In this document: piece after piece, positions 1 to 45,218 of the stretch
Layout: every line of letters starts with the position of its first letter
Numbering within the stretch: the stretch's first letter is position 1
Source: a phage
Length of the DNA stretch: 64,000 nucleotides
Direction: 5' to 3' (one strand)
Sequence record: PZ386965.1
The notes under the pieces: model-generated
Seen by the model: only the letters and a program-made list of their open reading frames with translations
The model's database searches: none
Told to the model about the DNA's origin: nothing
Program-made: the position numbers and the translations under genes

Positions 1-73
1 TAATTTCAGGGACAACGAGAAGATGTTGTCCGGTTGAATACTCCGCCATTATAAATCTCCGTGTTTAAAGCAA

Positions 74-81
74 TATAAATA
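74..81 (+). promoter_or_regulatory. T4-type late promoter candidate (TATAAATA)
   Basis: Exact TATAAATA 46 nt upstream of the ATG at 127; SD AAGGA at 113-117. Confidence 0.4.
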
Positions 82-126
82 GGTTTATCAATTTATCTGT
101 TGCTGTATCAAATAAGGATTTAGTAA

Positions 127-843
127 ATGAATTATAACTCAATATACGAAAAGCTTATTACCAATGCTAAATCAAGAAGTTTAGATGGTTATACAGAACG
201 TCATCACATTATACCACAATGTTTAGGTGGAAGTGATGATGCTTCAAACTTAGTAGACTTAACACCAGAAGAACATTATTTGGCACATCAACTGTTGGTA
301 AAAATCTATCCAGATAATGCCTCTTTAATATACGCTGCTCGTATGATGACCATATCATCTCCTAAAGCAGATAGAAGCAAAAACAAATTATTTGGATGGC
401 TTCGTCGTAAGAATCAAGAAGTTCAAAAGAACAAAGAATTCACGGCTGAAACCCGTAAGAAAATGTCCGAGTCTGCAAAAAATAAACCAAAGATTACCTG
501 TCCACATTGTGGTTTAACTGGAACTGAAGGAAACATGCGTCGTTGGCATTTTGATAATTGTAAACAAGGTCCAACGCCTAAAATAGTAAAATTATCTGAT
601 GATGAAAAACAGAGGATAAGTTCTAAACTTAAAACAATAGAGTGGAAACTCCACACATGTGTACACTGTGGTCTAGAAGGAAAAGCTTGCAATATAGTTC
701 CTCATGAGAAAAACTGCAAACTTAATCCTAATAGAATAAAACCTAATGTAACAATAGTGGAATGTCCATACTGCTCTAAAAGTGGTTCTATATCAAATAT
801 GAAAAGATGGCATTTCGATAATTGTAAATATAAGCCTCATTAA
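127..843 (+). CDS. HNH homing endonuclease with three C-terminal zinc-finger-like repeats
   Basis: 238 aa; N-terminal ERHHIIPxxxGG..N..EH..AH HNH signature; three CxxC...(R/K)RWHFDNCK-type repeats; ATG with SD; only plus-strand gene in the early region. Confidence 0.75.
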   Translation: MNYNSIYEKLITNAKSRSLDGYTERHHIIPQCLGGSDDASNLVDLTPEEHYLAHQLLVKIYPDNASLIYAARMMTISSPKADRSKNKLFGWLRRKNQEVQKNKEFTAETRKKMSESAKNKPKITCPHCGLTGTEGNMRRWHFDNCKQGPTPKIVKLSDDEKQRISSKLKTIEWKLHTCVHCGLEGKACNIVPHEKNCKLNPNRIKPNVTIVECPYCSKSGSISNMKRWHFDNCKYKPH

Positions 844-2528
844 GAGGCTTTCATCACAGTAAATCGTCCAACTTTGCTCATTTGAAGATGTTGTCCATAA
901 GCTTGTGGGTCATGGTCTCTGTGACTAATTATAAACACGTTTGCATCGGTTAGAGAGTTAAGAATTGTTGAAATAGCTTTAATACCTTCAGAATCAGTCG
1001 CGGAATCCATGACTTCGTCCATAATTAATGTATTGATTCTAACACCAGAGACCTTTTCAGCAATATCTCGCCATGTAAACAACAATGCGATATCGATACG
1101 TGCCTTTTCACCTTGACTAAATGAAGCATAACTGAACTCTTCACGGCCACGTGATTTTATAGATTCATTGAATTCTTCATCAATAGAAAACACGTAATCA
1201 GCTTCCATGATTTTAAGGTAATGGTTAATCTGCTTGTTGAACAGAGGCACATATTTTTTAATGATAGCACCTTTAATACCAGAATCTTTTAACATATCTG
1301 TGATAATACCACGATGGTATTTTTCAAGAACGATATCTGATTTTGTTTTAATGATTTTATCAAGTTCTTTTTGAAGCAAAGCTATCTCATCGGCATGGTC
1401 GATAAATTCCGCCGAGGCTTGTTCTATTGCAGCTTTAACTTTCTTAGCTTTATCAATAGTGGCAATCATTGCTTGTTTCTTGGTACGAATATCAGATGCA
1501 AGGTCCTGTTTAGTCTTAACATTAGCTCTATATTCGTCCACTAGGACACTCAGATTATCTCTGTGACATGTAAGTTGCTCGAATGAGTGATTACATTCAT
1601 GAAGCTTATCGGTAATCTTAGAGACAATAGGATCACCCTGGTGCAACTGTGATGCACAAGTAGGACATGTACCGCCATCATGATACATCTTAATAACTTT
1701 GTTATATGAGTCAATTTTAGATTTAATCAAGAATGCTTCTTGTCCGATCTTGTTGAATGCCTCAGTAGGGTCTTCGTCAAGAACGATATTAAGTAGACGC
1801 TCATTAGCTTCTTCGATTTCTGCTTTTAATGAACGAGCTTCTTTGGCTAGGTCGTCATACATATTCTGTAGACGCGCTACATTATCACCAGATAATTTCT
1901 TTTGACGTTCGATATTCTCGTTATAAATCTTAATTTGTTGGATAACACCATCTTTCTTGGCATCGAGAACTTGTCCCTGGGAATTAAGTTCTCGAACTTG
2001 AGACTTATTGATTTTATCCATTTCAGCAAGTGTGCCGACTTCTAAAAGGTCTTCGACAAGTTTTCTACGAGCAGGGGTGCTAAGAGCCATGAAAGGGGTA
2101 TACCCTGCCGTCCCAAGCACAACGATCTGTTTAAAAGACGCGTATGACATTCCGATGCTACGTTCAAATTCTTCTTGGAAGTCACGACTGCTGGCAGATT
2201 CATCGAGACGAACACCGTCAACGGAGATTTCGAAAATATTGGGCTTTTGGCCACGTTTAATGAAGTATTTTTTATCATCGAATTCCATCCAAAGCTCAAC
2301 TAAGAGCTCTTTCTTGTTCGTGCTATTAATGATTTGTCCTTTCTTAACATCACGAAATGGTTTACCGAAAAGTCCGAAAGTAATGGCTTCTAACATCGTA
2401 GATTTACCACCGCCATTTTTACCAGTGATTAATGTTTTTTGGACTTTATCTAATTGGATATCAATAGGATTCCCACCTACCGACATGATGTTTTGATAAC
2501 GAACACGATTTAATTTAAATGATTTCAT
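840..2528 (-). CDS. 46: recombination endonuclease subunit gp46 (Rad50/SbcC-like ATPase)
   Basis: 562 aa; Walker A GKNGGGKST; length and sequence match recalled T4 gp46; stop codon overlaps the convergent HNH stop. Confidence 0.93.
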   Translation of the reverse strand: MKSFKLNRVRYQNIMSVGGNPIDIQLDKVQKTLITGKNGGGKSTMLEAITFGLFGKPFRDVKKGQIINSTNKKELLVELWMEFDDKKYFIKRGQKPNIFEISVDGVRLDESASSRDFQEEFERSIGMSYASFKQIVVLGTAGYTPFMALSTPARRKLVEDLLEVGTLAEMDKINKSQVRELNSQGQVLDAKKDGVIQQIKIYNENIERQKKLSGDNVARLQNMYDDLAKEARSLKAEIEEANERLLNIVLDEDPTEAFNKIGQEAFLIKSKIDSYNKVIKMYHDGGTCPTCASQLHQGDPIVSKITDKLHECNHSFEQLTCHRDNLSVLVDEYRANVKTKQDLASDIRTKKQAMIATIDKAKKVKAAIEQASAEFIDHADEIALLQKELDKIIKTKSDIVLEKYHRGIITDMLKDSGIKGAIIKKYVPLFNKQINHYLKIMEADYVFSIDEEFNESIKSRGREEFSYASFSQGEKARIDIALLFTWRDIAEKVSGVRINTLIMDEVMDSATDSEGIKAISTILNSLTDANVFIISHRDHDPQAYGQHLQMSKVGRFTVMKAS

Positions 2529-2764
2529 ATGTATTCTCTTCGAATGAAGTCCTCTACATATTTTAACATGTCATCTCTATCAGCAAAATACTCATCTAGT
2601 TCTGCATACATAACAACACCTGGTGCGTACTCACAGGTAACATACATTGTTCCAAAGAAACGAGGAGTTGTCTCCTCGTAATTCTCAGTCCATTCAACGA
2701 TACCAATATAACCGTCACCAATACTAAATTCGTGACGATGGATTTCATAGTCAGTCTTCGTCAT
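2525..2764 (-). CDS. hypothetical protein (46.1-like position)
   Basis: ORF trimmed to in-frame ATG (MTKTDYEIH) with GAGGA SD 8 nt upstream; overlaps upstream gene by 13 nt. Confidence 0.4.
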   Translation of the reverse strand: MTKTDYEIHRHEFSIGDGYIGIVEWTENYEETTPRFFGTMYVTCEYAPGVVMYAELDEYFADRDDMLKYVEDFIRREYI

Positions 2765-3008
2765 TATACGCATCCTCGATACACGCTTCAGCCATTTTAA
2801 GAATAGAGCCAGGAGTATCATTGTCCATTATATTAAAGCTAAATTCAATAGCCCAGTCGGTACAGACATGAACGGCTTTAACTTCATTGCCTTCAACGCG
2901 TAATGGCTCAATCCAATACTTGATAGTGTTCTCGAATCCATCATCATCTTTAACGTCTATTTCAACTTCAAGCCCGAGCCCAGCATTATTAAATTCATCT
3001 AAAGTCAT
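2751..3008 (-). CDS. hypothetical acidic protein (46.2-like position)
   Basis: 85-aa ORF with ATG start, tightly packed between 47 and 46. Confidence 0.45.
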   Translation of the reverse strand: MTLDEFNNAGLGLEVEIDVKDDDGFENTIKYWIEPLRVEGNEVKAVHVCTDWAIEFSFNIMDNDTPGSILKMAEACIEDAYNDED

Positions 3009-4024
3009 TGTGTTGCCTCAATATAAAGTTCGTTGGAATATTTGACCAGCGCTTCTCTGTCTTCGTCTGAGATATCTGGAATAGCGTCAATATATTCTTT
3101 AATGATATCTTGAAGTGATTTAATCTCGATTTCCTGGTCATCATCAGATTCAACACTGTTATCAACTTTAGAAACCATACGAAGAGAGTGAACTACTTTT
3201 TCAAGTTCAGATTCAAACTTAGTCAACTCTGAATCAATTTCTGATACTATAACACGTACGGCTAGATTAGTATAATCAGAATAATTGATTTTGCCTTTAA
3301 ATGGATAAGTGATTCGTCGATGCCATGTTGTTTCATTAGGAATAAATTCCATACGTTCAACATCAGTGTCAAATACCCAGAATCCACGTGGGTCGTTCTC
3401 GTCACCTGCAGTAAGGGTCCATGGTGTCCCAATATATTTGACGTTAGCAGCTTCAGAGATTGTGTGGAAGTGGCCGGACCAGACTTGTTTATAGGTCTTT
3501 AAGAAATCAGGTTCAAGCCCATGGGACTTCATTCCTTTATAGAAATAAAAGCCGTTCAGTTCCCAGTGACCAACACAATACGCAGCAGAAGAAGTCTTGA
3601 TGTGCTCTAAGATTTCACCTGTATTTTCTTCACACATCCATGGAACGATATCAATCAGACATCCGTCAAAATCTACAGTAGTTGGATGCTCGTAAATAGT
3701 AAAGTTTTCAAATTGAGTTAACAATTCAGAAACAGTGTTAGGTGTTATTGTATTCTTAAACGCCATGTCATGGTTTCCTATCGTGACATGAACGTGAATG
3801 CCTGCTTTAGAAATCATATCAACGATTTCACGATTGAATTCCATTGTACGATGTGTTATTGCTTTACGGACGTCAAACCAATCACCGTACTGAATCCAAG
3901 TTTTAATCCCGTGTTTCTTAGAGTATTCAATTGCTTGTCGAATACCATCACGTTGAATATCTTGAACCCATGGGTCGTCTTGTTTGACTCCGATATGGAA
4001 GTCGCCTAAGTGCAAAATTTTCAT
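3005..4024 (-). CDS. 47: recombination nuclease subunit gp47 (Mre11/SbcD-like phosphoesterase)
   Basis: 339 aa; GDxHxG and GNHD phosphoesterase motifs; matches recalled T4 gp47; GAGGA SD. Confidence 0.93.
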   Translation of the reverse strand: MKILHLGDFHIGVKQDDPWVQDIQRDGIRQAIEYSKKHGIKTWIQYGDWFDVRKAITHRTMEFNREIVDMISKAGIHVHVTIGNHDMAFKNTITPNTVSELLTQFENFTIYEHPTTVDFDGCLIDIVPWMCEENTGEILEHIKTSSAAYCVGHWELNGFYFYKGMKSHGLEPDFLKTYKQVWSGHFHTISEAANVKYIGTPWTLTAGDENDPRGFWVFDTDVERMEFIPNETTWHRRITYPFKGKINYSDYTNLAVRVIVSEIDSELTKFESELEKVVHSLRMVSKVDNSVESDDDQEIEIKSLQDIIKEYIDAIPDISDEDREALVKYSNELYIEATQ

Positions 4025-24001: not shown

Positions 24002-24210
24002 TTAGGTTCACCTTCTTTAACGAAATCTGGGTAAGGGTAAAATCCTGAGTAAAATCCTTCACCTTTATGATTGCTACAACCTTTGTTCGAACAGTAACAC
24101 CAATAATCAAAATCACAAGCCATTTCGTCATTGCATAAAGCAAAAACTACAGGCCATTCGCATTTTTCGCATTTAGCACCTGTAAGAATTTTTGTTTGGC
24201 TCATAACCAT
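23998..24210 (-). CDS. cysteine-rich small protein
   Basis: 70 aa with about 10 Cys (CEKCEW...CNDEMACDFDYWCYCSNKGC). Confidence 0.4.
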   Translation of the reverse strand: MVMSQTKILTGAKCEKCEWPVVFALCNDEMACDFDYWCYCSNKGCSNHKGEGFYSGFYPYPDFVKEGEPK

Positions 24211-24428
24211 GTCACCTTTAAGCAGTATTCTTCTACATGCTGTTTACGACCTTTCTTATCAATAAAGGTATATTCAACGAATGTTCCAATGTAGTCTTTA
24301 TCTACGTCATGTGGACTATTAATTGGACATTTAGTACGACAAATGCGTTCCCATTGACGAATAATTACTGCTTTATTTTTAGGATCAAACGGATGTGGGT
24401 AATGCACATTCATAATAATGGTTCCCAA
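24201..24428 (-). CDS. hypothetical protein
   Basis: 75-aa ORF. Confidence 0.4.
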   Translation of the reverse strand: MGTIIMNVHYPHPFDPKNKAVIIRQWERICRTKCPINSPHDVDKDYIGTFVEYTFIDKKGRKQHVEEYCLKVTWL

Positions 24429-24877
24429 TCAACAATCACAATTTCTAGTTTAGTGGAATATGTATCAAGAATTTCTTCAATGATATCCCAGTTTCCACCA
24501 CCTATACCTGCACCAATTCTTGGCATATAAATTACAGGCTTTGTTATCTTATTTTTTCCGAATTCATTTAATTCTATTATACAATTCATTAAAGCATAGT
24601 ACTCAAAATTAGGTCCCGGCTCAAACTGTGTATAAAGATTAAAGCAATAAGCTTTATGGGTCTTAAAATATTTTTCATAAACCGAATAAGTCCCGAGTTT
24701 AGACTCATCTCCGAATTCGGTTTGAAGTTTATCGGCTTCTAAAATTTTTGGATAAGCCTTTGCCAATTGACCTGCTACACCGGCGCCCATTGTATGAAAA
24801 CAATTGCACCCATGAGCAATATTATTACCTTTAGAAAACAGGGCGATATTGTCGCCCTTGATATAGTTTTTAATCAC
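24410..24877 (-). CDS. macrodomain-like protein (putative ADP-ribose binding/hydrolase)
   Basis: 155 aa; N-terminal GxNxxHGCNC..MGAGVAG and C-terminal RIGAGIGGGNW glycine-rich motifs resemble macrodomain diphosphate-binding loops. Confidence 0.5.
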   Translation of the reverse strand: MIKNYIKGDNIALFSKGNNIAHGCNCFHTMGAGVAGQLAKAYPKILEADKLQTEFGDESKLGTYSVYEKYFKTHKAYCFNLYTQFEPGPNFEYYALMNCIIELNEFGKNKITKPVIYMPRIGAGIGGGNWDIIEEILDTYSTKLEIVIVDWEPLL

Positions 24878-25217
24878 TTGCTACAAGTCCTCTAGTATAA
24901 GAGTCAACTAGACGGTCCACCATAGAATTGCATGCTGCCTTATCTTTAGGTTCCGCCACCGAGCATTCTAATATTTGCCATTTTTTATAGTATCTTTTAA
25001 TTAAAGTAGACGCCTTGAACCTACTAGACGCCCCATCTTTTTCTCCGTCTTTATATGCATATAACAATTTTTGTGAAAAATCTACTTTACACTCTTGACT
25101 TTTACCACAATAATCAGACGCCGTTCTGTTTGTATACTCCGTTACATCAGTATATGTAGTATTAGCAAGAGCGTTAAATGAAACCAAGCCAACTATTAAA
25201 GCCAACATTTTGGTCAT
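24870..25217 (-). CDS. secreted protein (signal peptide)
   Basis: 115 aa; MTKMLALIVGLVSFNALA signal peptide; several Cys. Confidence 0.5.
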   Translation of the reverse strand: MTKMLALIVGLVSFNALANTTYTDVTEYTNRTASDYCGKSQECKVDFSQKLLYAYKDGEKDGASSRFKASTLIKRYYKKWQILECSVAEPKDKAACNSMVDRLVDSYTRGLVASD

Positions 25218-38198: not shown

Positions 38199-38250
38199 AA
38201 CTTTTTCAGTAAGTTATAGACCCCCTAATGGGGACCGAAGTCCCCATTCT

Positions 38251-38871
38251 TTACTTACGAGTTTTTGCATACTGAGCAGCGTCAGCAGCCAAACGACCTG
38301 CCTGACGAAGTTTTTCTTTAATCTCATCATGAAGTGGTTGAGTATACTTCAAACCTTCGATAGTCAAATAAAGACGATAAAGGTCTGGGGTGTCAAGGTT
38401 GTTGATATGTTGGCCATTACGAAGAATATTGAATTCACGAACGAGTGAAGATGTATCAGATTCAATATCACGAACAAGCGAAGATAGTTGTTTATATTTT
38501 TTTTCCAGGCTAGAAGTATCAAACTTAAGAGCAGGAGCTTTAGGAGCTGCTTTTACTTCCGGCTTAGGCTCAGGTTTTGCTTTAGGGGTCGCAGGTTTAG
38601 GAATGGTAGGAGCAGGTTTTACTTTAGGCGAACCAGATTTAGCAGAAACACCACCACTAACAATATCTTTGAATGCTTTAGAAGCTCTGTAATATTCTTT
38701 TTGGCTGGAAGTGTCGATACCATACATGGCTTGAACGTTTTTGAAAAACTCTGTACTAGTTTTTGTACCAGAAATAGCATCGTAAGCAGCTTGCCATTTC
38801 TCTTTTGTCATGCGTACACCGGCTTCGGTGATTACTTCCGTTTCGGCTAAAAATTCATTAAAAGTATACAT
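38251..38871 (-). CDS. internal-protein-like protein with CTS-like leader (MYTFNEFLAETE) and Pro/Lys-rich linker
   Basis: 206 aa; AAGGA SD; KPAPTIPKPATPKAKPEPKPEVKAAPKAPA low-complexity linker; late promoter 36 nt upstream. Confidence 0.5.
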   Translation of the reverse strand: MYTFNEFLAETEVITEAGVRMTKEKWQAAYDAISGTKTSTEFFKNVQAMYGIDTSSQKEYYRASKAFKDIVSGGVSAKSGSPKVKPAPTIPKPATPKAKPEPKPEVKAAPKAPALKFDTSSLEKKYKQLSSLVRDIESDTSSLVREFNILRNGQHINNLDTPDLYRLYLTIEGLKYTQPLHDEIKEKLRQAGRLAADAAQYAKTRK

Positions 38872-38906
38872 TGATGGTCCTTAGAAAGTAGGTTTATTGT
38901 TTACTA

Positions 38907-38914
38907 TATTTATA
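38907..38914 (-). promoter_or_regulatory. T4-type late promoter (TATAAATA)
   Basis: Exact TATAAATA on minus strand between terminator and the 206-aa CTS gene. Confidence 0.45.
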
Positions 38915-43298: not shown

Positions 43299-44120
43299 TT
43301 AAGATTTCCAAACAGTATTCGCGGAGAAACGTTTTCCTTTTGACATAAACTGCTGAGTAGGTAACATGATTATGTTAGCCCAGTCTTTAGGAGCTATTTC
43401 TGTTATTGTTCCTCTAATGTGGCCTGGCAGGTATGCTTTAATCATTTTGTCAGCACCTTGAAATCCTTTCACCTTGCTCCAGTCTATCTTCAACTTCGTG
43501 TTATTAGTAATAGTAGTTGTGCTAGCATATTGCTTCAGCAATTCTTCAAGAAACTGTTGTCGTGCTTTAGGTGGGATATAGTGCAAGTTTAACCCATACA
43601 TCAAATTATGTTTACCCAATCCTAAATAAATAATCAAAGGATATCTGTCCCAATACGGCAGAGTATCTTTATGTTTAGCATCATACACGTAAGTATAAAT
43701 TTTGCCTGGCGTAGGCTTGACTACTTTATGACCTTTTACACTTTTCTTAATTGTTTCAACAAACCACTTAGATGATTTGTTGTTTACTGCTGCGCCTTCA
43801 TTTCTAATCTTTTCTCGTATTGAACTGCGAAACGAGTTTATCATCAGAAGTTGACGTTCTTGCTTATTAAGTTTATTTTTAGGTTTAGATTCAAGCGTTT
43901 CAATTTTCTGTGCAGTCTTAATAGATGATGCATATCTAGACATTGCAGATGTAAACGACGAGTATTTTATTCCTTTTGATTCTGCAAATGCTTTTGCAGT
44001 GATTCCTTTCTCTTTAGCTTTCTTGTATTCTAATCCTATCTCAATCCATTTTCTTTCATTCATAGACTGAGCAATCTTAGGGGCTTGTACGCCTTCAGAT
44101 ATAATTTGGAATATGCTCAT
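43299..44120 (-). CDS. 2: DNA end-protector protein gp2
   Basis: 273 aa; length and position as T4 gp2. Confidence 0.8.
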
Positions 44121-44767
44121 TCAACTTTCCTCATTTTACAATTATCACCATGCCAACGTTTATAAGGCGCAGGTTTACATTCTATACCGCAGTATTGGCA
44201 TATCTTATTAGGAGTATTTAAGTATCCTAATCTCATGTTTTCCTTTTCTTCAGGAGTTCTATTTCGTCCCGTAAGAGTATTTTTTATTTTGTCTCTAATC
44301 TCTTTAGGCATTATCCTGCCTCGGCCTGCTTTACCTATTTTAGCTTTATGCTCTTCGGATAATTTCTTACCCTTCTTAGCTAAACTCATTTTCTTTTTAG
44401 ATTCTTCGGAAATAGGACCTAATTTTCTACCTCTGGATGAATCGCCTATTCTTTTTCGCACATCAATAGAACGGCCTCGTCCTCCCTTTCCTCCTAGGTC
44501 TATATTATATGTATCTTCTCTATCCACAAAAGATTGATCAACTAATTCTGCTTCCTTTTGGAAAGCCATTTCTTCATTTAGTAATTCGTCACCGGTATCA
44601 TACACATATAATACTTCTTTTACAAAATTATCTAATCCGTATTTAGCATGGGCTTTTAAGATAATTTTACCTGTTCCTTTATAAGAATCATCCGGGTTAT
44701 TAGTTTTATGAACACCTATATAAATTTTATTATTTACGATGTTAGTTATTTTATATACAGTATACAT
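44117..44767 (-). CDS. GIY-YIG homing endonuclease (seg-like) with C-terminal zinc-finger module
   Basis: 216 aa; N-terminal [16 protein letters not shown] (GIY...YIG) with conserved R and E; C-terminal CQYCG...KRWHGDNCK module shared with the HNH gene at 127-843; wedged between genes 2 and 4 with overlapping stops and starts. Confidence 0.75.
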
Positions 44768-44768
44768 A

Positions 44769-45218
44769 TCATCCCTTATATCCTAAACGACGTAAACCGT
44801 CTTCTGTGAGAATTCTGAATTTAATATTTCTTTTAGCCGCTAATGCTGACGCAGCTTTCCATTTGTCGCAGTTCACAGACCACACGTAGATCTCGTTCAT
44901 ATAACGTTTCTTTGCTGCAGTAGTAAGATTTGCAGGCTTAATAGGCGGTTGAGTTTCTTTCTTTGGTTTTATTTCTACAAAAAACTCTTGACCTGATGCA
45001 TCTTTCATCCATATGTCCATATAGTATCGACGTTTCTTACCTTCTGCGTTACAGAAATATGGAATTACTGCTGTTTCACTACCCCATGCAATAATTTCTG
45101 GATTTTTATCTAACCATTCGAAAAAGAATTTTTCCCAGTTTGAACGATACGTTATTTTGGTATGGTCTCCACGGTATTTTTTTAAATTTTTCGGGACCCA
45201 TTTACCAGAGTAGGCCAT
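44769..45218 (-). CDS. 4: head completion protein gp4
   Basis: 149 aa from MAYSGKWVPKNLKKYRGD with AAGGAGG SD; ORF-track N-terminal extension rejected. Confidence 0.85.
   Translation of the reverse strand: MAYSGKWVPKNLKKYRGDHTKITYRSNWEKFFFEWLDKNPEIIAWGSETAVIPYFCNAEGKKRRYYMDIWMKDASGQEFFVEIKPKKETQPPIKPANLTTAAKKRYMNEIYVWSVNCDKWKAASALAAKRNIKFRILTEDGLRRLGYKG

What the first reader, a model, noticed from the sequence alone, without database searches (positions are those of the whole stretch)
24410..24877. Macrodomain-like protein between tk and regB
Two glycine-rich loops (HGCNC..MGAGVAG and RIGAGIGGGNW) fit the ADP-ribose diphosphate-binding motifs of macrodomains. T-even phages encode ADP-ribosyltransferases, and host defence systems use ADP-ribose-derived signals or ADP-ribosylation, so a phage macrodomain could be counter-defence or regulatory.
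Basis: partly seen in the sequence, partly recalled or inferred. Interest (0 to 1): 0.45.

Follow-up and report, generated by a model that had tools for sequence, protein, structure and literature searches.

The report
Phage macrodomain that counters DarTG2 defence

Summary

It is the syntenic orthologue of T4 Tk.4 (83% identity, no gaps). A 2025 preprint showed that deleting T4 tk.4 sensitises T4 to DarTG2 and renamed the gene adfM. The counter-defence idea therefore holds, but it is already known.

Two refinements came out of this work:
- **Active site.** It is not DarG-like. The catalytic Lys of DarG and TARG1 is an invariant Gln (Q84), as in Streptomyces SCO6735, a thymidine-ADP-ribose DNA hydrolase. 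The protein also has no DarT-binding domain.
- **Closest characterised relative.** This is Vibrio phage Gary Adpp (34% identity), an ADP-ribose-1''-phosphate phosphatase that works with the NAD+ rebuilding pathway NARP1. Neither this window nor a near-identical Mosigvirus genome has a detectable homologue of the NARP1 genes. The Tk.4 clade also lacks Adpp's loop arginine and its 7-residue insertion.

Best reading: it hydrolyses DarT2's ADP-ribose-thymidine adducts on phage DNA. The main rival is a phosphatase activity.

The parts
24410..24877 (-). tk.4 / adfM orthologue: single-domain macrodomain protein, 155 aa, GTG start
   Evidence: ORF. 83% identical over 155 aa, without gaps, to T4 Tk.4. 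Pfam Macro above cut-off. AF2 pLDDT 96.1. dN/dS 0.08.
24767..24817 (-). Loop 1 (substrate-binding loop), residues 21-37 AHGCNCFHTMGAGVAGQ. It holds His22, Asn25 and the G31-x-G33 motif. Ala32 sits where SCO6735 has Lys34 and Adpp has Arg.
   Evidence: G23, N25, G33 and A35 are invariant and H22 is at least 90% conserved in 117 homologues. Mutating the equivalent Asn nearly abolishes (SCO6735 N27S) or reduces (PhiKZ gp104 N23A) activity.
24626..24640 (-). End of the central beta-strand, N80-L-Y-T-Q84. Gln84 occupies the position of the catalytic Lys84 of TARG1 and Lys80 of DarG, and of Gln85 of SCO6735.
   Evidence: The HMM alignment to BT1257 and TARG1 and hhalign to SCO6735/BT1257/ALC1 place it there. 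Q84 is invariant in 116/116 database homologues and 79/79 bacterial homologues, and in 82/83 viral loci. The SCO6735 Q85A mutant is inactive.
24488..24523 (-). Loop 2 (diphosphate-binding loop), residues 119-130 PRIGAGIGGGNW. Gly122 and Gly124 match SCO6735 Gly126 and Gly128. Gly126 sits where TARG1 has the catalytic Asp125.
   Evidence: P119, I121, G122 and G124 are invariant. SCO6735 G128E loses activity.
24870..24877 (-). 8-nt overlap between the end of vs and the GTG start of tk.4 (translational coupling)
   Evidence: Sequence and ORFs. T4 has an ATGA overlap at the same junction.
24410..24413 (-). ATGA overlap between the tk.4 stop (TGA) and the tk.3 start (ATG)
   Evidence: Sequence. The tk.3 orthologue is annotated at the matching position in MZ234025.1.
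24870..25217 (-). Context: vs (valyl-tRNA synthetase modifier), the upstream gene in the same transcription direction
   Evidence: ORF. Annotation of MZ234025.1 and T4.
24201..24413 (-). Context: tk.3 orthologue, the downstream gene

Best explanation
The gene encodes the Mosigvirus (RB69-like) orthologue of T4 Tk.4/AdfM. This is a free-standing macrodomain of the ALC1/TARG1/DarG-like class that acts as an orphan 'antitoxin-like' enzyme.

Shown by tools here:
- It has a macrodomain fold with both ADP-ribose-binding loops.
- It is the syntenic orthologue of T4 Tk.4.
- It is co-oriented with vs and tk.3 and overlaps both, which suggests translational coupling within the regB-vs.1-vs-tk.4-tk.3 gene chain.

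Shown in the literature for the T4 orthologue:
- Loss of tk.4 makes T4 sensitive to DarTG2. The DarT2 toxin of that system ADP-ribosylates thymidine in single-stranded DNA and blocks replication.

Inferred mechanism:
- The protein binds the ADP-ribose adduct in the cleft between loop 1 (H22-G-C-N25...G31-A-G33) and loop 2 (P119-x-I-G-A-G).
- It hydrolyses the C1''-N3(thymine) bond, restoring replicable phage DNA.
- The chemistry is not DarG-like. There is no catalytic lysine, and Gln84, held by Asn25, is predicted to position the distal ribose for attack by water, as proposed for Streptomyces SCO6735.
- It has no DarT-binding domain, so any direct inhibition of DarT2 would have to come from the macrodomain itself.
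For: - **Match to DarG models.** The only PADLOC family matched is DarG (1e-7). The only NCBIfam match is the DarG macro region.
- **Orthology.** 83% identity over 155 aa with no gaps, in the same position between vs and tk.3.
- **Genetics in T4.** tk.4 was the single significant hit under DarTG2, and the knockout was sensitised. T4 lacking adfA and adfN is still DarTG2-resistant, so another factor had been expected.
- **Active site.** Q84 aligns with SCO6735 Gln85, TARG1 Lys84 and DarG Lys80. It is invariant in 116/116 and 79/79 homologues. N25, G122 and G124 are also conserved, and the equivalent SCO6735 mutants N27S and G128E lose most activity while Q85A is dead.
- **Precedent for the chemistry.** SCO6735, a Gln-type enzyme with no DarT partner, removes DarT's thymidine-ADPr faster than DarG and rescues cells from DarT. 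A different phage macrodomain, PhiKZ gp104, has been shown biochemically to remove DarT2 adducts from DNA.
Against: - There is no biochemistry on T4 Tk.4 or on this protein. The T4 result is genetic and comes from a preprint.
- The closest biochemically characterised relative by sequence is not a DNA hydrolase. It is Adpp, an ADP-ribose-1''-phosphate phosphatase (34% identity, BLASTP 6e-23; hhalign 1e-33, against 5e-16 for SCO6735/BT1257/ALC1 and 9e-9 for PhiKZ gp104).
- The two lysines that position DNA in SCO6735 (K34 and K89) are not conserved. Position 32 is Ala, and the loop after Gln84 is 5-6 residues shorter.
- The allele in this window was not itself tested, and the 26 substitutions against T4 could matter.
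Confidence: 0.65

Rival explanations
1. It is mainly an ADP-ribose-1''-phosphate phosphatase (Adpp/Poa1p-like). It would convert the ADPR-1P made by RES-domain NAD+ phosphorylases (aRES defence), or by RNA-repair side reactions, back into ADP-ribose.
For: Vibrio phage Gary Adpp has been shown to dephosphorylate ADPR-1P (bioRxiv 10.64898/2026.01.28.702374). It is the nearest characterised relative: 34% identity and hhalign probability 99.9%, E 1e-33. It shares H22, N25, D49, K60, N80, Y82, Q84, G122 and G124. RefSeq T4 and PHROG 335 call the protein 'phosphatase'. Poa1p is among the top structural hits. Both reactions break a bond at C1'' of the distal ribose, so one site could plausibly do both.
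Against: Adpp works only as part of the Adps-Adpp-Namat operon, which I confirmed in phages Gary and phi 3. tblastn finds no homologue of Adps or Namat in the window or in a near-identical Mosigvirus genome. Only 1 of 80 Tk.4-type viral loci has Namat nearby, against 3 of 3 Adpp-type loci. Adpp-type proteins carry Arg at position 32 and a 7-residue insertion after Gln84. The Tk.4 clade has Ala, Ser or Gly there in 116/116, 79/79 and 76/80 sequences, and usually the short loop. The T4 phenotype is against DarTG2, which makes no ADPR-1P.
Confidence: 0.15
2. It protects mainly by binding and blocking DarT2 ('interaction-inhibition'), not by catalysis.
For: Catalytically dead SCO6735, DarG and TARG1 macrodomains all inhibit DarT in vitro, and SCO6735 does so most strongly. 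The phage factors AdfA and AdfB act by toxin binding.
Against: The full set of catalytic-site residues (N25, Q84, G122, G124) is invariant across hundreds of phage and bacterial homologues, including bacteria with no DarT2 homologue detected within 4 kb. That pattern points to selection on enzyme activity. The protein lacks DarG's C-terminal DarT-binding domain.
Confidence: 0.1
3. It erases protein ADP-ribosylation or deacetylates O-acetyl-ADP-ribose. For example, it might tune the phage's own Alt, ModA and ModB modifications or reverse a host protein-targeting transferase.
For: T-even phages encode Alt and Mod transferases; both are annotated in the near-identical genome. TARG1 and SCO6735 also hydrolyse Glu/Asp-linked ADP-ribose. 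Some databases label homologues 'O-acetyl-ADP-ribose deacetylase'.
Against: By established knowledge, Alt, ModA and ModB modify arginine, a linkage this macrodomain class is not known to cleave. This was not tested here. In T4 the only tk.4 phenotype the preprint reports is under DarTG2. Wild-type T4 is still blocked by the mRNA ADP-ribosyltransferase CmdT, so Tk.4 is not a general eraser.
Confidence: 0.07
4. It degrades ADP-ribose-derived immune signals such as the Thoeris gcADPR or His-ADPR.
Against: There is no specific similarity to any known signal-degrading or signal-binding protein. The known anti-Thoeris proteins mentioned act by blocking the defence protein's NAD+ site, not through macrodomain hydrolysis.
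Confidence: 0.03

Closest known systems
T4 Tk.4 = AdfM (anti-DarT factor Macrodomain), bioRxiv 10.1101/2025.11.20.689424
   Same: 83% identical over the same 155 aa, in the same slot between vs and tk.3, with all conserved residues the same. This is the same gene in a sister genus.
   Different: 26 substitutions, none at an invariant position. The start is GTG with an 8-nt overlap rather than T4's ATGA. The anti-DarTG2 phenotype has been shown only for the T4 allele.
Streptomyces coelicolor SCO6735 and Bacteroides BT1257 (PDB 5E3B, 2FG1/2AFC)
   Different: Identity is only 22-30%. The SCO6735 residues Lys34 and Lys89, which contact DNA, are not conserved. Tk.4 also lacks the 5-6-residue 'mobile loop' insertion after the Gln.
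Adpp of Vibrio phage Gary (KNV71_gp137), the NARP1-associated ADPR-1''-phosphate phosphatase
   Same: It is the closest characterised sequence relative: 34% identity, and hhalign E 1e-33 to the Tk.4-family profile. It has the same HxCNCF, D49, K60, NxYxQ and IGxGxxGG signature.
   Different: Adpp sits in an Adps-Adpp-Namat operon, and tblastn finds no homologue of Adps or Namat here. Adpp has Arg where Tk.4 has Ala32, and a 7-residue insertion after the Gln. Its demonstrated substrate is a small molecule, not DNA.
DarG, the macrodomain antitoxin of DarTG2 (PDB 5M3E, 5M3I, 7OMU)
   Different: The catalytic Lys80 is replaced by Gln. There is no C-terminal DarT-binding domain (28 bits against a cut-off of 250, covering only model positions 19-146 of 338). 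It is not encoded next to a DarT.
PhiKZ gp104, also named AdfM (Cell Rep 2026, PMC13309987)
   Same: A phage macrodomain that counters DarTG2. It has been shown to remove DarT2 adducts from DNA, and its conserved Asn matters for activity.
   Different: It belongs to a different clade: 19% identity and hhalign E 9e-9. Its FPTKDNW motif resembles the T-K of TARG1's LITK, so I read it as Lys-type like DarG, though the alignment in that region is low-confidence. The shared name hides two different active-site types.
Human TARG1 (OARD1) and yeast Poa1p
   Same: Both are top structural matches. TARG1 also reverses DarT's DNA adducts. Poa1p shares the H-x-C-N-C and YPK..D motifs.
   Different: The TARG1 residues Lys84 and Asp125 correspond to Gln84 and Gly126 here. 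Poa1p has Ser at the Gln position and acts on ADPR-1''P.

Membership tests
Macrodomain (Pfam PF01661) | Sequence score above the curated Pfam cut-off | tested here: met
   28 bits against a cut-off of 22, covering residues 22-136 of the protein and positions 2-117 of the 118-position model.
Macrodomain (Pfam PF01661) | Three-layer alpha/beta/alpha macro fold | tested here: met
Macrodomain (Pfam PF01661) | Two glycine-rich ADP-ribose-binding loops (GxG after strand 2; IGxG before the last helix) | tested here: met
   G31-A-G33 and I121-G-A-G124 are invariant or nearly so in 117 homologues. They align with the loops of TARG1 and BT1257.
Macrodomain (Pfam PF01661) | Binds ADP-ribose | not testable with these tools
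   Needs ITC, a thermal-shift assay or a co-crystal.
T4 Tk.4 / AdfM orthologous group | Full-length high identity to T4 Tk.4 | tested here: met
   129 of 155 residues identical with no gaps, E 1e-102.
T4 Tk.4 / AdfM orthologous group | Conserved position between vs and tk.3 in the tk-regB cluster | tested here: met
   vs is found next to the gene in 27 of 83 related viral loci, and tk.3 in 19 of 83.
T4 Tk.4 / AdfM orthologous group | Required for growth on DarTG2 hosts | not testable with these tools
   Shown only for T4.
DarG (DarTG2 antitoxin, NCBIfam NF048014) | Score above the equivalog cut-off; two-domain architecture with a C-terminal DarT-binding domain | tested here: not met
   28 bits against a cut-off of 250. 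Only model positions 19-146 of 338 are matched, and the protein ends at residue 155.
DarG (DarTG2 antitoxin, NCBIfam NF048014) | Catalytic lysine (Lys80 in T. aquaticus and M. tuberculosis DarG) | tested here: not met
   The equivalent position is Gln84. This follows from the alignment to TARG1 Lys84 and the published equivalence of Lys84 and Lys80.
DarG (DarTG2 antitoxin, NCBIfam NF048014) | Encoded next to a DarT toxin | tested here: not met
   Its neighbours are vs and tk.3. tblastn with one P. aeruginosa DarT2 query found no DarT2 homologue in 80 bacterial loci or 83 viral loci that hold relatives. A single query has limited sensitivity.
SCO6735/BT1257-type (Gln-type) ALC1-like macrodomains | Gln at the catalytic-Lys position, held by the conserved Asn; Gly in the phosphate loop | tested here: met
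   Q84, N25 and G124 align to Q85, N27 and G128 and are invariant.
SCO6735/BT1257-type (Gln-type) ALC1-like macrodomains | Long 'mobile loop' and the DNA-positioning Lys34 and Lys89 | tested here: not met
   BT1257 has a 6-residue insertion relative to the Tk.4 profile. Position 32 is Ala.
Adpp (NARP1-AP phosphatase) | Located in an Adps-Adpp-Namat operon | tested here: not met
   tblastn finds no Adps or Namat homologue in the window or in the near-identical genome MZ234025.1.
Adpp (NARP1-AP phosphatase) | Sequence homology to Gary Adpp | tested here: met
   34% identity, E 6e-23; hhalign probability 99.9%.
Adpp (NARP1-AP phosphatase) | ADPR-1''-phosphate phosphatase activity | not testable with these tools
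   Needs an LC-MS assay as. Tk.4 differs at position 32 (Ala against Arg) and lacks the insertion, but those features have not been shown to define the activity.

The most novel reading that the evidence does not exclude
The Tk.4/AdfM-Adpp family may be a single 'lysine-free' group of C1''-hydrolases built on the Asn25/Gln84 pair. In it, two small switches would decide whether the enzyme erases DarT2's thymidine-ADP-ribose on DNA or dephosphorylates ADPR-1''P. The switches are the loop-1 residue (Ala, Ser or Gly against Arg) and a 7-residue insertion after the Gln. The T-even enzyme might do both, which would make one small protein a counter to two unrelated NAD+-based defences, DarTG2 and RES-type NAD+ phosphorolysis.
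Probability: 0.25. Interest if true: 0.45.

Novelty: already known. Interest (0 to 1): 0.2.

Why it matters
The gene belongs to the layered anti-DarTG toolkit of T-even phages, alongside AdfA and AdfN. Its presence helps predict which therapeutic or model phages can grow on DarTG2-carrying E. coli. That much is already in the literature for T4.

What this analysis adds is modest but testable:
- The T-even enzyme is not a DarG copy. It is a Gln-type macrodomain whose nearest characterised relative is a phage ADPR-1''-phosphate phosphatase.
- Homologues occur in about 5.6% of sequenced phage genomes, under three different labels ('macro domain', 'phosphatase', 'hypothetical').
- Two unrelated clades now share the name AdfM.

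Working out which residues set DNA specificity against small-molecule specificity would let thousands of phage macrodomains be annotated correctly.

Tried and rejected
- **Structure job.** I re-ran it without that row.
- **Small MAFFT alignment.** An alignment of six diverse macrodomains misplaced the central strand. I relied instead on the HMM, hhalign and larger anchored alignments.
- **DarG sequence.** I could not obtain one to align directly, so the Lys80 equivalence rests on the TARG1 alignment plus the published structure-based alignment.
- **Captured-antitoxin idea.** I asked whether the phage gene is a captured DarTG antitoxin. In 80 bacterial loci the homologues are single-domain. They have no DarT2 homologue within 4 kb by tblastn with one query. 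They sit among housekeeping genes such as a class-I tRNA synthetase, rpoC and a PLP enzyme. I therefore rejected direct descent from a canonical two-domain DarG.
- **NARP1 linkage.** tblastn with the Gary and phi 3 Adps and Namat proteins found nothing in the window or in the rest of a near-identical genome. It is not supported.
- **Promoter and terminator scan.** The counts were no better than in shuffled sequence, so no transcription unit could be defined.
- **Single-protein scan of IMG/VR with Gary Adpp.** It found only 3 close relatives. The Arg32 and insertion association with NARP1 therefore rests on one phage lineage.
- **General RNA ADP-ribose eraser.** Rejected, because CmdTAC still blocks wild-type T4.

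Full report
**Observation**

The window holds an ORF on the minus strand at 24410-24877 that encodes 155 aa from a GTG start.

The window is a T-even phage of the genus Mosigvirus (RB69-like). It is 98-99% identical over 3.5 kb to several Escherichia phages. The gene order tk, tk.1-tk.3, this ORF, vs, vs.1, regB is the same as in T4, where the gene in this position is tk.4.

The start codon lies 8 nt inside the end of vs, and the stop codon overlaps the ATG of tk.3 as ATGA. T4 has an ATGA overlap at the vs/tk.4 junction. The gene therefore looks translationally coupled to both neighbours.

The reading frame is under strong purifying selection. dN/dS is 0.08 against T4 and 0.09 against a 95%-identical Mosigvirus. 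One GenBank record starts its copy at Met30. That call is almost certainly too short, because the N-terminal strand and the His22/Asn25 motif align with T4 Tk.4, BT1257 and TARG1 from residue 1-5 onward.

**What it is**

The protein passes the Pfam Macro cut-off (28 against 22 bits) and hits PHROG 335 'phosphatase' at 3e-64. An AlphaFold2 model built on 117 homologues is very confident (pLDDT 96.1, pTM 0.91).

The structure searches agree with each other:
- Foldseek against the PDB puts TARG1, Poa1p, DarG, BT1257, T. africanus DarTG and SCO6735 at the top.

This is the ALC1/TARG1/DarG-like class of macrodomains. The only defence-system model matched in PADLOC is DarG (1e-7), and the only NCBIfam model is the DarG equivalog. 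That second match scores 28 bits against a cut-off of 250 and covers only the macro part of the model.

**What is already known**

The protein is 83% identical, without gaps, to T4 Tk.4. A preprint of November 2025 (HIDEN-SEQ, 10.1101/2025.11.20.689424) reports three things. tk.4 was the single significant transposon hit when a T4 library was grown on a DarTG2 host. A clean knockout sensitised T4. The authors renamed the gene adfM, and they inferred, but did not test, enzymatic removal of ADP-ribose from DNA.

This fits an earlier observation that T4 lacking both adfA and adfN remains DarTG2-resistant.

An unrelated-clade macrodomain, PhiKZ gp104, was independently given the same name. It was shown biochemically to remove DarT2 adducts (PMC13309987). 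Near-identical phages already carry the labels 'macro domain protein' or 'phosphatase'.

**Active site**

The family alignment of 117 sequences has these invariant positions: G23, N25, G33, A35, D49, G62, N80, Y82, Q84, P119, I121, G122 and G124.

The profile alignments to solved structures place the key residues as follows:
- Q84 sits on the Gln of BT1257 (NMIGQ) and on Lys84 of TARG1 (LITK).
- Window Gly126 sits on TARG1 Asp125.
- hhalign against SCO6735/BT1257/ALC1 gives the same register.

According to PMC9411070, TARG1 Lys84, DarG Lys80 and SCO6735 Gln85 are structurally equivalent. In SCO6735, Q85A is dead, N27S is nearly dead and G128E is impaired. SCO6735 has no partner toxin, yet it removes DarT's thymidine-ADP-ribose faster than DarG and rescues cells from DarT.

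The window protein keeps the equivalents N25, Q84 and G124. It does not keep the DNA-positioning Lys34 (Ala32 here) or the long 'mobile loop' that holds Lys89. Q84 is invariant in 116/116 database homologues and 79/79 bacterial homologues, and in 82/83 viral loci.

Tk.4 is therefore a Gln-type enzyme, not a DarG-type (Lys) enzyme. PhiKZ gp104 carries FPTKDNW, which looks Lys-type. It is only 19% identical to the Tk.4 family (hhalign E 9e-9), and the alignment in that region is low-confidence.

**A serious rival found on the way**

A January 2026 preprint (10.64898/2026.01.28.702374) shows that some phages add a Poa1p-like macrodomain, Adpp, to the NAD+ rebuilding pathway NARP1. Adpp dephosphorylates ADP-ribose-1''-phosphate, the product of RES-domain NAD+ cleavage (aRES defence). 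The biochemistry was done on Vibrio phage Gary KNV71_gp137.

I located that gene and its phi 3 homologue. Both lie between a ribose-phosphate pyrophosphokinase-like gene (Adps) and a nicotinamide phosphoribosyltransferase gene (Namat).

Gary Adpp is 34% identical to the window protein (E 6e-23). It matches the Tk.4 family profile at hhalign E 1e-33. That is closer than SCO6735/BT1257/ALC1 (5e-16) or any PDB entry (best 2.5e-17). It shares every invariant residue, including Gln84.

The best-characterised close relative is thus a phosphatase, in line with the old T4 note 'A1pp phosphatase motif'.

Several results argue against that role here:
- tblastn finds no Adps or Namat homologue in the window or in the rest of a near-identical genome.
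- Only 1 of 80 Tk.4-type viral loci has a Namat nearby, against 3 of 3 Adpp-type loci.
- Adpp-type proteins have Arg at position 32 and a 7-residue insertion after the Gln. Tk.4-type proteins, including stand-alone copies in Suspvirus, Seunavirus and Kuttervirus phages, have Ala, Ser or Gly at position 32. Most have the short loop, although the Seunavirus copy carries a 5-residue insertion.

The Adpp sample comes from a single phage lineage, so these differences are suggestive and not proven determinants. Both reactions break a bond at C1'' of the distal ribose, so dual activity cannot be excluded.

**Origin and spread**

tblastn finds a match in 2832 of 50,697 phage records, mostly large myoviruses of enterobacteria, Klebsiella, Vibrio, Pseudomonas, Acinetobacter and Aeromonas.

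Bacterial relatives at 35-46% identity occur in Rhodobacterales, Hyphomicrobiaceae, Verrucomicrobia, Planctomycetes and Desulfobacteraceae. They share three properties:
- They are single-domain proteins of about 150 aa.
- tblastn with one DarT2 query found no DarT2 homologue within 4 kb.
- They sit among housekeeping genes.

The phage gene therefore resembles the stand-alone SCO6735-like 'genome-protecting' macrodomains more than a captured two-domain DarG antitoxin.

**Mechanism proposed**

Steps shown here by tools:
- The protein has a macrodomain fold with both ADP-ribose loops.
- It is the orthologue of T4 Tk.4.
- It has a Gln-type active site.
- It has no DarT-binding domain.

Step shown in the literature for T4:
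- The gene is needed to grow on DarTG2.

Steps inferred:
- The protein binds ADP-ribose attached to N3 of thymidine in single-stranded phage DNA.
- Gln84, held by Asn25, positions the distal ribose.
- Water cleaves the glycosidic bond, releasing ADP-ribose and restoring replicable DNA.

I put this at about 0.65. The rivals are:
- Phosphatase as the main function, 0.15.
- Toxin binding without catalysis, 0.10.
- Protein or OAADPr eraser, 0.07.
- Thoeris-signal degradation, 0.03.

Wild-type T4 is still blocked by the mRNA ADP-ribosyltransferase CmdT, so the enzyme is not a universal eraser.

**Verdict**

The gene is the RB69-group orthologue of T4 tk.4/adfM. Interest is low (0.2).

The residual value lies in three points. 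The active site is Gln-type and not DarG-type. The family is sister to the Adpp phosphatases, which opens the question of dual or switchable specificity. Annotation is inconsistent, with one truncated gene call, three different labels, and one name shared by two clades.

Noticed in passing
window 24791-24877 (first 29 codons); L001 3292-3378: GenBank MZ234025.1 annotates its copy as 126 aa starting at the internal Met30. That would delete the first beta-strand and the conserved His22/Asn25. The full 155-aa GTG-start frame is intact there and is under purifying selection.
   Followed up: yes
window 24840-24858, minus strand: A terminator-like hairpin (7 bp stem, 5 G-C pairs, followed by GTTTTCTAAA) lies inside the 5' end of the coding region, at about codons 7-13. 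Across the region there were 5 such sites against 2.6 +/- 1.5 in shuffles, so it may be chance.
   Followed up: partly
window 24870-25217 (vs gene): The HIDEN-SEQ preprint reports that the neighbouring gene vs (valyl-tRNA synthetase modifier) was the most strongly depleted T4 gene in M9-glucose against LB. tk.4 is coupled to it by overlapping codons.
   Followed up: no
PhiKZ gp104 (sequence from PMC13309987) compared with window 24410-24877: Two groups gave the name AdfM to different macrodomain clades. T4 Tk.4 is Gln-type (LYTQ), while PhiKZ gp104 (FPTK) looks Lys-type. They share only 19% identity.
   Followed up: yes
L011, L021, L033, L034, L062, L076 (about 640-3960); L015, L059, L077 (about 10-3860): In Hyphomicrobiaceae the bacterial homologue sits directly downstream of a class-I aminoacyl-tRNA synthetase gene. 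In Ruegeria it sits downstream of rpoC. These are housekeeping contexts, not defence islands. The aaRS link is probably a coincidence with T4's vs neighbour.
   Followed up: partly
L089 2995-3777 (phage mistaenkt); L091 2950-3555 (phage SeKF_19): Some stand-alone phage homologues carry extra parts. The Suspvirus protein has a C-terminal extension of about 100 aa. The Kuttervirus protein has an insertion of about 30 aa before the last strand.
   Followed up: no
one of the viral loci L092-L174 (not identified), alignment: One of the 83 viral homologues shows Lys instead of Gln at the position of Q84. It could be a natural Lys-type member of this clade or an alignment artefact. I did not identify which locus it is.
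   Followed up: no
L148 (IMGVR_UViG_3300046457_000084), 3501-3962 and flanks: This is the only Tk.4-type viral locus with a Namat homologue within 3.5 kb. It has no Adps hit, Gly at position 32 and the short loop. It may be an intermediate arrangement between the AdfM and Adpp contexts.
   Followed up: partly
window 38204-38910 and 44120-44793: These stretches had no megablast match to the otherwise 93-98% identical Mosigvirus MZ234025.1. They are probably variable or inserted segments.
   Followed up: no
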